Shown here: positions 47,451-55,627 of the stretch, one piece after another
Position numbering within the stretch: the stretch's first letter is position 1
Layout: each line of letters begins with the position of its first letter
Assembly (NCBI RefSeq): GCF_009914755.1
Contig: NC_060933.1
Direction: 5' to 3' (one strand)
DNA from: the human T2T-CHM13v2.0 reference genome, Homo sapiens
DNA: 64,000 bases
Position numbers and translations under genes: made by a program
The notes under the pieces: model-generated
Seen by the model: only the letters and a program-made list of their open reading frames with translations
What the model was told of the DNA's origin: nothing
The model's database searches: none

Positions 47451-49621
47451 AAAACTGTAGCCCAAGAGGGCCTAGAAGGATCTGTAAAAGAGCAGTGTTG
47501 GGGCCAGAAAGGGCTTCTCCAACACAAGTGGAATAAAACAGAAATATGACAAGGAAATAGCAGAATATAGCAAGAAAACCACTGTTATTTGTGTCAACTA
47601 CCATCGTGCATGACAAGCAGTAAGAAAATATTTGTCCTTGAACAAGTGGGTAAATAAAATAATGATAAGATATCACTGCCTTGCTGCTGTATCTCCTACT
47701 GTATCTCCTATTATTTTCATTTCAACTTTTATTTTAGATACAGGAAATATATGTGCAGGGTTGTTACATAGGAATATTACGTGATGCTGAGGTTTGGAGT
47801 GTGGATCCCATTGTCCAGGCAGTGAGCATAGTACCTGATACATATTTTTTTAACCCACCAGCCCTTCTCTCCCTCCACCCTCTAGTAGTCCACAGTGTCT
47901 ATTTTTCCCATATTTATATTCATGTGTGCTCAATGTTTAGTTCCCACTTATAAGTGAGAACACACAGTATTTGGTTTTCTGTTACTGCACTAATTCACTT
48001 AGGATTATGGCCTCCAGATCCATCCATGTTGCTGCAAAGGACATGATTTCATTTTTTTTTATGGTGGGCAGCAAGCCACCCAGGTACTGAGGCAAGAGAC
48101 CAAGGGCACGAGCTGTACCAGTATAATAAAATATACAAAACAAGAGTTATACTAGATCTAGATCATAGACATGATTATATATGAATATCATTCATTAATC
48201 ATTAGTTTGTAGCAATTACTCTTTATTCTAATATTATAATAATCCTCGCTCTATAACCATAACCTAGGAAAAACCAGGCCATACAGAGATCGGAGCTGAG
48301 GGGACACAGTGAGAAGTGACCAGAAGACAAGAGTGTGAGCCTTCTGTTATGCCCGGACAGGGCCACCAGAGGGCTCCTTGGTCTAGCGGTAACACCAGCA
48401 TCTGGGAAGACGCCCGTTGCCAAGCAGACCGTGGTCTAGCGGTAGCCTCAGTGTCAAGGAAAAACACCCGCTACTTAGCAGACTGGGTAAGGGAGTCTCC
48501 CTTTCCCCCAGGGAGTTTAGAAAAGACTCTACTCCTCCACCTCTTGTGGAGGGCCTGACATCAGTCAGGCCCGCCCACAGTTATCCGGAGGCCTAACAGT
48601 CTCCCTGTGATGCTGTGCTTCAGTGGTCACACTCCTAGTCTGCCTTCATGTTCCATCCTGTACACCTGGCTCTGCCTTTTAGATGACAGTAGCAAAATTA
48701 GAAAAAGTCCTCAGTGGGGGGAGGAGCCAAGATGGCCGAATAGGAACAGCTCCGGTCTACAGCTCCCAGCGTGAGCGACGCAGAAGACGGGTGATTTCTG
48801 CATTTCCATCTGAGGTACCGGGTGCATCTCACTAGGGACTGCCAGATAGTGGGCGCAGGTCAGTGGGTGCGCGCACCGTGCACAAGCTGAAGCAGGGCAA
48901 GGCATTGCCTCACTCAGGAAGCGCAAGGGATCAGGGAGTTCCCTTTCCTAGTCAAAGAAAGGGGTGACAGACGGCACCTGGAAAATTGGGTCACTCCACC
49001 CGAATACTGCGCTTTTCCAACGGGCTTAAAAAACGGCACACCAGGAGATTATATCACGCACCTGGCTCGGAGGGTCCTACGCCACGGAGTCTCGCTGACT
49101 GCTAGCACAGCAGTCTGAGATCAAACTGCAAGGCAGCAGCAAGGCTGGGGGAGGGGCGCCCACCATTGCCCTGGCTTGCTTAGGTAAACAAAGCAGCCAG
49201 GAAGCTCGAACTGGGTGGAGCCCACCACAGCTCAAGGAGGCCTGCCTGCCTCTGTAGGCTCCACCTCTGGGGGCAAGGCACAGACAAACAAAAAGACAGC
49301 AGTAACCTCTGCAGACTTAAATGTCCCTGTCTGACAGCTTTGAAGAGAGCAGTGTTTCTCCCAGCACGTAGCTGAAGATCTGAGAACGGGAAGACTGCCT
49401 CCTCAAGTGGGTCCCTGACCCCTGACCCCCGAGCACCCTAACTGGGAGGCAACCCCCAGCAGGGGCAGACTGACAACTCACACGGCCAGGTACTCCAACA
49501 GACCTGCAGCTGAGGGTCCTGTCTGTTAGAAGGAAAACTAACACACAGAAAGGACATCCACACCAAAAACCCATCTGTACATCACCATCATCAAAGACCA
49601 AAAGTAGATAAAACCACAAAG

Positions 49622-50638
49622 ATGGGGAAAAAACAGAACAGAAAAACTGGAAACTGTAAAAAGCAGAGTGCCTCTCCTCCTCCAAAGGAGCGCAGTTCCT
49701 CACCAGCAACGGAACAAAGCTGGATGGAGAATGACTTTGACGAGCTGAGAGAAGAAGGCTTCAGATGATCAAATTACTCCGAGCTACGGGAGGACATTCA
49801 AACCAAAGGCAAAGAAGTTGAAAACTTTGAAAAAAATTTAGAAGAATGTATAACTAGAATAACCAATACAGAGAAGTGCTTAAATCAGCAGATGGAGCTG
49901 AAAATCAAGGCTCGAGAACTACGTGAAAAATGCAGAAGCCTCAGGAGCCGAAGCGATCAACTGGAAGAAAGGGTTTCAGCGATAGAAGATGAAAAGAATG
50001 AAATGAAGCAAGAAGGGAAGTTTAGATAAAAAAGAATAAAAAGAAACGAGCAAAGCCTCCAAGAAATATGGGACTATGTGAAAAGACCAAATCTACGTGT
50101 GATTGGTGTACCTGAAAGTGACAGGGAGAATGGAACCAAGTTGGAAAACACTCTGCAGGATATTATCCAGGAGAATTTCCCCAATCTAGCAAGGCAGGCC
50201 AACATTCAAATTCAGGAAATACAGAGAACGCCACAAAGATACTCCTCGAGAAGAGCAACTCCAAGACACATAATTGTCAGATTCACCGAAGTTGAAATAA
50301 AGGAAAAAATGTTAAGGGCAGCCAGAGAGAAAGGTCGGGTTACCCTCAAAGGGAAGCCCATCAGACTAACAGCAGATCTCTTGGCAGAAACTCTACAAGC
50401 CAGAAGAGAGTGGGAGCCAATATTCAACATTCTTAAAGAAAAGAATTTTCAATCCAGAATTTCATATCCAGCCAAACTAAGCTTCATAAGTGAAGGAGAA
50501 ATAAAATCCTTTATAGACAAGCAAATGCTGAGAGATTTTGTCACCACCAGGCCTGCCCTAAAAGAGCTCCTGAAGGAAGTGCTAAACATGGAAAGGAACA
50601 ACTGGTACCAGCCACTGCAAAATCATGCCAAAATGTAA
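49622..50638 (+). pseudogene. L1 ORF1p with premature stops
   Basis: Starts MGKKQNRK and ends QPLQNHAKM*; internal TGA (about 49766) and TAA (about 50027). Confidence 0.9.
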
Positions 50639-50701
50639 AGACCATTGAGACTAGCAAGAAAATGCATCAACTAACGAGCAAAATAACCAGCTAACATCAT
50701 A

Positions 50702-53700: not shown

Positions 53701-54542
53701 ATGTCTAAAACACCAAAAGCAATGGCAACAAAAGCCAAAATTGACAAATGGGATATAATTAAACTAAAGAGCTTCTGCACAGCAAAAGAAACTACCATCA
53801 GAGTGAACAGGCAACCTACAAAATGGGAGAAAATTTTCGCAACCTACTCATCTGACAAAGGGCTAATATCCAGAATCTACAATGAATTCAAATTTACAAG
53901 AAAAAAACAAACAACCCCATCAAAAAGTGGGCGAAGGACATGAACAGACACTTCTCAAAAGAAGACATTTATGCGGCCAAAAAACACAGGAAAAAATGCT
54001 CACCATCACTGGCCGTCAGAGAAATGCAAATCAATACCACAATGAGATACCATCTCACACCAGTTAGAATGGCAATCATTAAAAAGTCAGGAAACAACAG
54101 ATGCTGGAGAGGATGTGGAGAAATAGGAACACTTTTACACTGTTGGTGGGACTGTAAACTAGTTCAACCATTGTGGAAGTCAGTGTGGCGATTCCTCAGG
54201 GATCTAGAACTGGAAATACCATTTGACCCAGCCATCCCATTACTGGGTATATACCCAAAGGACTATAAATCATGCTGCTATAAAGACACATGCACATGTA
54301 TGTTTATTGCGGCATTATTCACAATAGCAAAGACTTGGAACCAACCCAAATGTCCAACAATGATAGACTGGATTAAGAAAATGTGGCACATATACACCAT
54401 GGAATACTATGCAGCCATAAAAAATGATGAGTTCATGTCCTTTGTAGGGACATGGATGAAATTGGAAATCATCATTCTCAGTAAACTGTCGCAAGAACAA
54501 AAAACCAAACACCACATGTTCTCACTCATAGGTGGGAATTGA
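50702..54542 (+). pseudogene. L1 ORF2p with frameshifts and stops; RT motif FADD changed to FADE
   Basis: ORFs 50702-51109, 51127-51795, 51985-53943 and 53940-54542. Confidence 0.92.
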
Positions 54543-55627
54543 ACAATGAGAACACATGGACACAGGAAGGGGAACATCACGCTCTGGGGCCTGTTGTGGG
54601 GTGGGGGGAGGGGGCAGGGATAGCAATGGGAGATATACCTAATGCTAGATAACGAGTTAGTGGGTGCAGTGCACCAGCAATGCACATGTATACATATGTA
54701 ACTAACCTGCACATTGTGCACATGTACCCTAAAACTTAAAGTATAATAATTATAAAATAAAATAAAAGTCCTCAGTAATAAAAAAAAAAAAACAGTAGCA
54801 AAATTAGTGAAAGTACTAAAAGTCTCTGATATGCAGAAATAATGGCATAAGCTGTCTCTCTCTCTCCCTCTCTCTCTCTGCCTTGGCTGCCAGGCAGGGA
54901 AGAGCCCCTTTTCCAGTGGACACGTGACCCACGTGACCTTACCTGTCATTGGAGATGACTCACACTCTTTACCCTGCCCCTTTTGCTTTGTATCCAATAA
55001 ATAACAGCACAGCCAGACATTCGGGGCGACTACCAGTCTCCGCGACTTGGTGGTAGTGGTCCCCCGGGCCCAGCTGCCTTTTCTTTTATCTCTTTGTCTT
55101 GTGTCTTTATTTCTACACTCTCTTGTCTCCGCACACAGGGAGAAACCCCCCGGCCCTGTGGGGCTGGTGCCTACATTTATGACTGTGGAAAATTCCATTG
55201 TGTATATGTACCATATTTTCTTTGTCCAATCTGCCATTAATGGGCACCTGTGTTGATTCCACGTCTTTGCTATTATGAATAGCACAGCAATTAACATAAG
55301 AGTATATGTGTCTTTTTATTTTCTTTGAGGTATAAACCCAGTAATGGGATTGCTGAGTCAAATTGTAGGCCTGTTTTAACTTTTTTGAGAAATCTACAGG
55401 CTGCTTTCCACAGTGCCTGGGGCAACTTATATTCCCATCAACAGTGTATAAGCACTCCCTTTTCTCAGCAACCTTGCCAGCATCTGTTGTTCTTTGACTT
55501 CTTTAAGATATCCATTCTGACTGGTGTGAGGTGGTATCTCATTGTGGTTTTGATTTGCATTTATCTGATGATTAGTGATGATGATAATTTTTTCATATGC
55601 TTGTTGGCCACTTGTATATCTTCTTTC

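What the first reader, a model, noticed from the sequence alone, without database searches (positions are those of the whole stretch)
48686..54807. Full-length L1 with two nested TSD pairs and two tails: an L1 apparently carrying its parent's TSDs at both ends
Seen: LTR13-[acagtagcaaaattag 48686-48701]-a-[aaaagtcctcagt 48703-48715]-L1-tataaaataaaat-[aaaagtcctcagt 54764-54776]-aat-A12-13-[acagtagcaaaattag 54792-54807]-LTR13. Only the outer 16-bp repeat is LTR13 target sequence, by my recall of the consensus; the inner 13-bp repeat is foreign. The second tail starts about 14-19 nt after AATAAA hexamers in the first tail, which is canonical cleavage spacing. Inference: the source transcript began at least 14 nt upstream of the L1 and was cleaved just past its 3' TSD. 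That is simultaneous 5' and 3' transduction, leaving a barcode of the parent locus. Alternative: the L1 inserted into a pre-existing approximately 30-bp retroposed stub.
Basis: partly seen in the sequence, partly recalled or inferred. Interest (0 to 1): 0.8.

Follow-up and report, generated by a model that had tools for sequence, protein, structure and literature searches.

The report
L1 carrying its lost parent's duplications
A full-length L1 jumping gene on chromosome 9 carries at both ends a 13-letter scar copied from its parent's site on chromosome 6, where no L1 sits today; this is a tidy example of a known process, not a new one.

Summary
The layout is: outer 16-mer (48686-48701), one A, inner 13-mer (48703-48715), a 6048-nt L1, inner 13-mer (54764-54776), AAT, A13, outer 16-mer (54792-54807).

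- **Outer pair:** it is the true target-site duplication. In 19 of 19 other copies of the host LTR the 16-mer occurs once, with contiguous flanks, and the 13-mer occurs in none.
- **Inner pair:** it is foreign and traceable. CHM13 holds 10 exact copies of AAAAGTCCTCAGTAAT, and two matter.
  - **Sibling on chrX (55.69 Mb):** a 5'-truncated L1 with its own 13-bp duplication, the same (AAAAT)n tail and the same tag, extended by CAT before its poly(A).
  - **Source site on chr6 (85.20 Mb):** an L1-free site reading TT|AAAAGTCCTCAGT|AATCATA. It sits inside an uninterrupted old repeat, and none of 8 aligned relatives shares its first eight letters, AAAAGTCC.

The source transcript began at or about the first base of the source's 5' duplication and was cleaved 3 nt (chr9) or 6-7 nt (chrX) past its 3' duplication. 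The stub alternative is rejected.

Short 5' and 3' transductions are known, so interest is modest.

The parts
48440..48685 (+). Left part of the host LTR (the stretch tested; the LTR extends further left)
   Evidence: window 48440-48701 matches 39 other places at 92-94% identity (40 of 557 candidates scored); the LTR is contiguous across the insertion point in 19 of 19 fetched copies.
48686..48701 (+). Outer target-site duplication, 5' copy (ACAGTAGCAAAATTAG). It may be 17 bp, because 19 of 19 other LTR copies have A where the window has G at 48685.
48702..48702 (+). One extra A, templated neither by the LTR (T follows TTAG in 18 of 19 copies, G in one) nor by the chr6 source site (T precedes AAAAG)
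48703..48715 (+). 5' tag: a copy of the source L1's 5' target-site duplication (AAAAGTCCTCAGT), i.e. a 13-nt 5' transduction
   Evidence: It is identical to the chr6 site. The 5' tag joined to an L1 start is unique in CHM13.
48716..54749 (+). Full-length L1 body: 5' UTR start GGGGGGAGGAGCC, with ORF1 and ORF2 both broken into pieces
   Evidence: open pieces of 109, 135, 222, 652 and 200 aa only; 51 differences from the column majority of 10 close copies over the last ~2.8 kb; same start base as the chr4 full-length L1.
54750..54763 (+). First, patterned A-rich tail (TTATAAAATAAAAT) inherited from the source locus, holding two AATAAA hexamers. Its left border is approximate.
   Evidence: The chrX sibling has the same AAAATAAAATAAAAT directly before the tag.
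54764..54776 (+). 3' tag, part 1: a copy of the source L1's 3' target-site duplication (AAAAGTCCTCAGT)
54777..54779 (+). 3' tag, part 2: AAT, three further bases of the chr6 flank before the cleavage and polyadenylation point
   Evidence: chr6 reads AAAAGTCCTCAGTAATCATATTTG
54780..54791 (+). Second poly(A) tail. The run is 13 A if the A at 54792, shared with the outer duplication, is counted.
54792..54807 (+). Outer target-site duplication, 3' copy
54808..54860 (+). Right part of the host LTR (the stretch compared; the LTR extends further right)
   Evidence: the 50 bases after the 16-mer in 19 other copies match window 54808 onward.

Best explanation
A source L1 once sat on chr6 (CHM13 C6:85200869-85200884, minus strand) with a 13-bp target-site duplication, AAAAGTCCTCAGT, made at a TT|AAAA nick site. 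It is absent from CHM13.

Its transcripts began at or about the first base of the 5' duplication. That is 13-14 nt upstream of L1 base 1, within the known scatter of start sites of the L1 promoter.

The transcripts were cleaved and polyadenylated just past the 3' duplication. The signal was the AATAAA hexamers in the source's own patterned tail, probably helped by the T/GT-rich chr6 flank (CATATTTGTTTTGTTATTTTGGTTTTC).

One such RNA, cleaved after AAT, was copied in full by target-primed reverse transcription into an LTR on chr9. That made the 16-17-bp outer duplication and the structure in the window.

Another RNA, cleaved after CAT(A), gave the 5'-truncated copy on chrX.

Shown: the anatomy, the outer duplication, the foreign origin of the tag, the sibling, and the matching L1-free chr6 site. 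Inferred: the start site of the RNA, the role of the hexamers and the T/GT-rich flank, and how the source was lost (never fixed, or precisely excised).
For: - Anatomy.
- Outer pair is a real duplication of single-copy LTR sequence: 19 of 19 other LTR copies are contiguous there.
- The 13-mer is absent from those 19 loci.
- CHM13 has 10 exact places for the 16-mer tag. Read in context, two follow an L1 3' end (the window and chrX). Among the other eight, only chr6 is preceded by TT and followed by CAT.
- chrX copy: 2.85 kb, with an alignment to the window L1 that runs through the tail and tag. It has its own duplication GAAAATGTCAGCT on both sides, and its tag reads AAAAGTCCTCAGTAATCAT before A10.
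- chr6 site: it lies within an old interspersed repeat. In 8 of 9 relatives that repeat aligns in one piece from -400 to at least +160 across the site; the ninth aligns in two pieces, the second of which spans the site.
- None of the 8 aligned relatives has the AAAAGTCC start of the tag, so the match is to letters that none of the aligned relatives shares.
- No L1 of this kind lies between 1.5 kb upstream and 1.7 kb downstream of the chr6 site.
- Hexamer spacing.
- In print: insertions with 3' transduction carry the source's 3' duplication (PMC4859970, passages). L1 transcripts often carry short non-L1 sequence at the 5' and/or 3' end: half of the start sites fall within 50 nt of the L1 start, and 93% of 3' tags end less than 60 nt past the L1 (PMC2768975, passages).
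Against: - The source L1 itself was not found; the chr6 site is empty in the one genome searched.
- The extra A at 48702 matches neither chr6 (T) nor the LTR, so the exact RNA start is not fixed.
- The window and chrX L1 bodies share only 4 derived sites against a 10-copy background. Eight control pairs share 1-8, so the bodies give no independent support for kinship. They are 95.7% identical.
- Only two tagged copies exist. Of 43 places within 2 mismatches of the tail+tag 21-mer (33 for the reversed control), 2 follow an L1 end.
- Patterned (AAAAT)n tails are not unique to this lineage: a chr4 L1 with an ordinary single duplication has one too.
Confidence: 0.9

Rival explanations
1. Only the 3' tag was transduced. 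The 5' copy of the 13-mer was made during integration: reverse transcriptase reached the 5' end of an L1 RNA that started at base 1, jumped to the 3' tag of the same or a second RNA, copied about 13-14 nt, and then the cDNA was joined to the target.
For: Template switching at L1 RNA 5' ends is an established source of chimeric retrocopies (own knowledge, not checked in a call). The extra A at 48702 shows that something untemplated happened at this junction.
Against: The jump would have to land exactly at the last base of what, in the other model, is simply a duplication of typical length (13 bp). It would also have to stop after 13 nt, just where the tag meets the tail. The base before the 3' tag is T, not A, so the extra A is not explained either. 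Starts a few to tens of nt upstream of the L1 are common in 5' RACE data (PMC2768975).
Confidence: 0.05
2. Stub model. A short retroposed piece, A+AAAAGTCCTCAGTAAT+poly(A), first landed in the LTR and made the outer duplication. An unrelated L1 then inserted into it and made the inner 13-bp duplication locally. The chrX copy would be an offspring of the chr9 element.
For: A-rich tracts are favoured L1 targets, and AAAA starts the inner repeat. No outgroup could be checked.
Against: The chrX copy reads CAT after the tag, where chr9 has only A. Those three letters match the chr6 site, so chrX does not descend from chr9. The chr6 site, with letters none of its 8 aligned relatives shares and a TT|AAAA nick site, matches the tag from its first base; under the stub model that would be coincidence. 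The second insertion would have had to recreate the same tail-to-tag junction as chrX.
Confidence: 0.03
3. Chance: the inner repeat is a coincidental match of A-rich sequence at the two L1 borders.
For: A 15-mer inside ORF2 (52320-52334) matches the 3' tag at 14 of 15 positions, which shows that A-rich near-matches do occur.
Against: There is an exact 13-mer at both borders, with a chance of about 1.5e-6. The same tag follows another L1 on chrX, and there is a matching chr6 site.
Confidence: 0.01

Closest known systems
L1 3' transduction (Moran 1999; Goodier 2000; Pickeral 2000, as cited in PMC4859970, passages seen)
   Same: Two A-rich tails with non-L1 sequence between them. The transduced piece begins with the source's 3' target-site duplication. 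The tag serves as a barcode linking offspring (window and chrX) to one source locus (chr6).
   Different: The tag is very short (16 nt here, 19-20 nt on chrX). It seems to result from cleavage downstream of AATAAA hexamers in the source's own tail, not from read-through to a separate downstream signal. The source element is absent from the genome searched.
L1 5' transduction (Symer 2002 and Lander 2001, as cited in PMC4859970; population data in PMC12350158, passages seen)
   Same: Non-L1 sequence from directly upstream of the source sits between the new 5' duplication and L1 base 1 of a full-length copy.
   Different: It is only 13-14 nt, exactly the source's duplication, with no splicing. 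The well-studied 8q21.11 source uses a strong upstream promoter and splicing into the L1 (PMC12350158). PMC4859970 calls L1 5' transductions 'almost non-existent'. PMC12350158 finds 82.2% (350) of partnered L1 transductions at the 3' end, which leaves a sizeable minority at the 5' end.
L1 transcripts with short non-L1 ends, seen by 5' and 3' RACE (Rangwala et al. 2009, PMC2768975, passages seen)
   Same: Start sites scatter within about 50 nt of the L1 start, and polyadenylation usually falls less than 60 nt past the L1. Many short 3' extensions use the L1's own signal. The window element looks like a retrotransposed copy of exactly such an RNA.
   Different: That paper reports RNAs from living cells. 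Here the RNA is inferred from an insertion that is old, judging by the divergence of its copies.
SVA transduction groups with shared 5' and 3' sequence, and use of source duplications inside the transduced sequence to confirm sources (PMC12593883, passages seen)
   Same: Both ends carry source-locus sequence, and the source's duplication lies inside the transduced sequence.
   Different: A different element (SVA, non-autonomous), much longer transductions, and a young, polymorphic set.

Membership tests
L1 insertion by target-primed reverse transcription | Target-site duplication of single-copy target sequence flanking the whole insert | tested here: met
   The 16-mer is present twice in the window and once in each of 19 of 19 other LTR copies, with contiguous flanks.
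L1 insertion by target-primed reverse transcription | Poly(A) tail abutting the 3' duplication | tested here: met
   A13 at 54780-54792.
L1 insertion by target-primed reverse transcription | Nick site resembling 5'-TTTT/AA-3' on the bottom strand | tested here: inconclusive
   The present sequence gives CTGT/CA. With the A that 19 of 19 other LTR copies carry at 48685 and a 17-bp duplication, it would be TGTT/AT. The source site on chr6 gives TTTT/AA, and the chrX site gives TTTC/AA.
L1 3' transduction | Two A-rich tails with non-L1 sequence between them, inside the outer duplication | tested here: met
   First tail to 54763, tag 54764-54779, second tail from 54780.
L1 3' transduction | The transduced sequence maps to a unique locus directly downstream of a source L1 | tested here: inconclusive
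   It maps to one fitting site, chr6 85.20 Mb. Among the 8 non-L1 places of the 16-mer, this is the only one with TT before and CAT after. No L1 is present there in CHM13.
L1 3' transduction | Other offspring share the tag | tested here: met
   The chrX 55.69 Mb copy has the same tail and tag and its own duplication. No third copy was found: 2 of 43 near-matches follow an L1 end.
L1 5' transduction | Full-length L1 with non-L1, non-target sequence between the 5' duplication and L1 base 1 | tested here: met
   14 nt (48702-48715) precede GGGGGGAGGAGCC. The L1 start was fixed by comparison with the chr4 full-length L1.
L1 5' transduction | That sequence matches the DNA immediately upstream of the source L1 | tested here: met
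   13 of 13 bases are identical to the chr6 site, which as the duplicated target would lie directly upstream of the source L1. The 14th base (A) does not match chr6 (T).
L1 5' transduction | The RNA started upstream of the L1 (a start site actually mapped) | not testable with these tools
   The source is gone, and no RNA data bear on it.

The most novel reading that the evidence does not exclude
The chr6 source may be a 'ghost': an active L1 allele, old to judge by the divergence of its offspring, that never reached fixation (or was excised exactly) and is now known only from two fixed offspring. If its RNAs routinely started at the first base of the A-rich 5' duplication, then duplication-length 5' transductions could be a regular and overlooked class. 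Nested duplication pairs would then let extinct source loci be reconstructed genome-wide. They would also mislead tools that take the innermost repeat as the insertion's own duplication.
Probability: 0.15. Interest if true: 0.45.

Novelty: new member of a known kind. Interest (0 to 1): 0.3.

Why it matters
- **Source tracing.** A 13-16-nt tag was enough to find a sibling and the source's former site in a complete genome. Pipelines that need longer transduced pieces would probably miss this. In the one method text seen (PMC12350158), extra-short alignment seeds were set on purpose to catch short events.
- **A lost source.** It documents a source L1 that left fixed offspring but is itself absent.
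- **An annotation trap.** Taken alone, the inner pair looks like a perfect duplication starting with AAAA. It would place the insertion borders 14-31 nt too far in on each side.
- **No new mechanism.** Both kinds of transduction, and RNAs with short extensions at both ends, are in print.

Tried and rejected
- **ORF2 near-match.** Window 52320-52334 matches the 3' tag at 14 of 15 positions. I considered that the tag came from an L1 body, or that the source sat inside an older L1. The chr6 context is unrelated to that ORF2 stretch, so this is chance.
- **Extended outer repeat.** The outer repeat extends to 26 nt at 88% identity (family D1). This is a chance likeness between the tag and the LTR's next bases. 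I found no step of integration that would use it, and a microhomology reading at the 5' junction predicts 3 A where 5 are seen.
- **Shared private substitutions.** The window and chrX L1 bodies share 4 derived sites; 8 control pairs share 1-8. This is uninformative. The background was 10 of the 41 non-self rows (rows 2-5, 8-12 and 14; rows 6, 7 and 13 were skipped). Only 40 of 12,867 candidates were scored there, so these need not be the closest copies.
- **chr4 L1 (135.95 Mb).** It has a similar patterned tail, so I checked it as a possible parent or sibling. It has an ordinary single duplication, AAAACCATCAGATCT, and no tag.
- **Other full-length copies with the 5' tag.** None found: the exact 26-mer, the tag plus a flexible G-run, and a 33-mer with up to 3 mismatches each returned only the window.
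- **Longer transductions from chr6.** Searching with 217 nt of flank found only the site itself at 100%. The next matches, at 85% identity or less, are old repeat relatives (40 of 119 candidates scored).
- **Papers.** Lavie 2004 and Athanikar 2004 are not held. Their content is cited only as other papers describe it. Searches for print reports of nested or source duplications at both ends of an L1 found none for L1. The search tool cannot take the prime sign, so this is weak evidence of absence.
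Full report
**Observation**

- host LTR
- ACAGTAGCAAAATTAG (48686-48701)
- A (48702)
- AAAAGTCCTCAGT (48703-48715)
- L1, starting GGGGGGAGGAGCC at 48716
- a patterned A-rich tail ending ...TTATAAAATAAAAT (to 54763)
- AAAAGTCCTCAGT (54764-54776)
- AAT (54777-54779)
- A13 (54780-54792)
- ACAGTAGCAAAATTAG (54792-54807)
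- host LTR

Each repeat occurs exactly twice in the 64-kb window. The chance of the 13-mer recurring within 60 positions is about 1.5e-6 by the window's base composition. The AATAAA hexamers at 54756-61 and 54761-66 end 19 and 14 nt before the second tail.

**The outer pair is the real target-site duplication**

A search of the window's own genome with 48440-48701 gave 39 other places at 92-94% identity (40 of 557 candidates were scored). In all 19 of the 19 copies fetched, the 16-mer or its close variant occurs once. It is followed directly by the sequence that follows the right-hand copy in the window (TGAAAGTACTAAAAGTCTCTGAT...). None of the 19 loci contains the inner 13-mer on either strand.

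All 19 have A where the window has G at 48685. The duplication may therefore have been 17 bp, with a bottom-strand nick site of TGTT/AT rather than CTGT/CA. This is an inference.

**The L1**

The element is 6048 nt long. It starts at the same base as an ordinary full-length L1 on chr4, whose own duplication abuts GGGGGAGGAGCC. Its reading frames are broken: the longest ATG-started pieces are 109, 135, 222, 652 and 200 aa.

Over its last ~2.8 kb it differs at 51 aligned positions (about 1.8%) from the column majority of 10 close copies. The best other copies scored in the genome are 93-96% identical (40 of 12,867 candidates scored). This fits an insertion of roughly L1PA3 age. The subfamily name and any date rest on recalled figures, not on a call.

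**Where the inner repeat comes from**

The 16-mer AAAAGTCCTCAGTAAT has 10 exact places in CHM13; the reversed control pattern has 5. Read in context, two of the ten follow an L1 3' end: the window copy and a copy on chrX (C23:55691431-55691446, minus strand).

The chrX element has these features:

- It is a 2.85-kb, 5'-truncated L1. BLAST gives 94.9% identity to the window L1; MAFFT gives 95.7% over the body.
- It has its own 13-bp duplication, GAAAATGTCAGCT, on both sides.
- It has the same patterned tail, ...AAAATAAAATAAAAT, directly before the tag.
- Its tag reads AAAAGTCCTCAGTAATCAT before A10.

It is thus an independent insertion of an RNA with the same L1-tail-tag arrangement, cleaved a few bases further on.

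Of the eight remaining places, only one is preceded by TT and followed by CAT. That is C6:85200869-85200884 (minus strand), which reads ...CTTACCATT|AAAAGTCCTCAGT|AATCATATTTGTTTTGTTATTTTGGTTTTC.... The evidence on this site is as follows:

- It lies inside an old interspersed repeat. In 8 of 9 fetched relatives, that repeat aligns in a single piece from 400 nt before the site to at least 160 nt after it. The ninth aligns in two pieces, the second of which spans the site.
- In the alignment of the 8 single-piece relatives (the split one was left out), none has the AAAAGTCC start of the tag. All are one base shorter there and read differently. The match to the tag therefore includes letters that none of the 8 aligned relatives of the chr6 copy carries.
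- No sequence like the window L1 lies between 1.5 kb upstream and 1.7 kb downstream of the site.

The chr6 site accounts for all of these at once:

- the 13-mer at both ends of the window L1;
- the AAT that follows it at the 3' end;
- the extra CAT(A) in the chrX copy;
- a perfect TTTT/AA nick site exactly where the tail meets the tag.

I conclude that a source L1 once sat there with the duplication AAAAGTCCTCAGT and is absent from CHM13.

**Mechanism**

Shown:

- Two offspring carry the source's tail plus its 3' duplication, followed by 3 nt (chr9) or 6-7 nt (chrX) of chr6 flank.
- The full-length offspring also carries the source's 5' duplication.

Inferred:

- The source RNA began at or about the first A of the 5' duplication, 13-14 nt before L1 base 1. 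This is within the scatter of L1 start sites. Rangwala et al. report that half of the mapped starts lie within 50 nt of the L1 start, and call these typical of the native promoter (PMC2768975, passages).
- The RNA was cleaved 13-22 nt after the AATAAA hexamers of the source's own tail. The T/GT-rich chr6 flank probably acted as the downstream element.

The same paper reports that 93% of L1 3' tags end less than 60 nt past the L1, and that many short extensions use the L1's own signal. Hancks and Kazazian note that a 3'-transduced insertion carries the source's 3' duplication (PMC4859970, passages).

The single extra A at 48702 is templated by neither chr6 (T) nor the LTR. Possible causes are an untemplated base at the 5' junction, a later one-base gain in the A-run, or a substituted -14 start. 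I cannot tell which.

How the source was lost is also open. It may never have been fixed (the usual fate of new insertions), or it may have been excised exactly between its duplications.

**Rivals**

- **Stub model.** It fails because the chrX tag has CAT, which chr9 lacks and chr6 has. It also fails because it would require an independent insertion to recreate the same tail-to-tag junction as chrX.
- **Template jump.** Reverse transcriptase could have jumped from the RNA's 5' end to its 3' tag and made the 5' copy. This is not excluded, but it needs the jump to begin and end at just the borders that the duplication model predicts. I give it 0.05.
- **Chance.** Excluded.

**Results that do not help the reading**

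- The two L1 bodies share only 4 derived positions, against 1-8 for eight control pairs. Kinship therefore rests on the tail, the tag and the chr6 site, not on the bodies.
- No third tagged copy exists. Of 43 places within two mismatches of AAAATAAAAGTCCTCAGTAAT (33 for the reversed control), all 43 were read (30, 12, one). Only the same two follow an L1 end.
- No other L1 start carries the 5' tag.
- No long transduction from the chr6 flank was found.
- Patterned (AAAAT)n tails also occur on an unrelated chr4 L1.

**Comparison with what is known**

3' transduction is common. 5' transduction of L1 was long thought very rare ('almost non-existent', PMC4859970). In long-read data from 1,019 people, 82.2% (350) of partnered L1 transductions are at the 3' end and the rest at the 5' end. 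One source at 8q21.11 gives only 5' events, through an upstream promoter and splicing (PMC12350158, passages). SVA groups with shared sequence at both ends, and the use of source duplications inside transduced sequence to confirm sources, are in print (PMC12593883, passages).

My searches found no print report of an L1 carrying both source duplications. The search tool cannot take the prime sign and the older key papers are not held, so I do not claim the absence. Supplementary tables of these papers were not opened.

**Verdict**

The thing itself is a clear, well-resolved instance of known processes: short 5' plus 3' transduction from an upstream-starting, late-cleaved L1 RNA. The added points are that its source site can be named and that the source is gone.

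Noticed in passing
window 52320-52334: The L1's ORF2 holds AAAAATCCTCAGTAA, a 14-of-15 match to the 3' tag (AAAAGTCCTCAGTAA). I judge it chance, because the tag is explained by the chr6 site.
   Followed up: yes
L012 (G000:C23:55690900-55698900), minus strand: The chrX sibling: a 2.85-kb, 5'-truncated L1 with duplication GAAAATGTCAGCT, truncated within ORF2 at ...ACAAACACCTCTATGCAAATAAAC. A member of the same old repeat family as the chr6 site lies about 15 kb away (C23:55676567-55676784), which is probably coincidence.
   Followed up: partly
L006/L056 (G000:C6, around 85200869): The source site lies in an unidentified old interspersed repeat with at least 119 candidate relatives at 72-85% identity, 12 of the 40 scored being on chrX. 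An A29 run lies about 155 nt downstream of the site. The family was not named.
   Followed up: no
L086, L096, L097 (G000:C4:135954786-135961250): A full-length L1, the best-scoring relative of the window L1's 3' half (96%). It has a similar (AAAAT)n-type tail but an ordinary single duplication, AAAACCATCAGATCT. It may belong to the same lineage.
   Followed up: partly
window 48385-48450: The host LTR holds an internal near-duplication (GGTCTAGCGGTAAC... and GGTCTAGCGGTAGC... about 45 nt apart).
   Followed up: no
window 54856-54882: A short CT-rich microsatellite (CTCTCTCTCTCCCTCTCTCTCTCT) in the right part of the LTR.
   Followed up: no
window 54407-55297, minus strand: A 296-aa ATG-started open frame runs antisense across the L1 3' end, both tags and into the LTR. 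It is most likely a chance frame.
   Followed up: no
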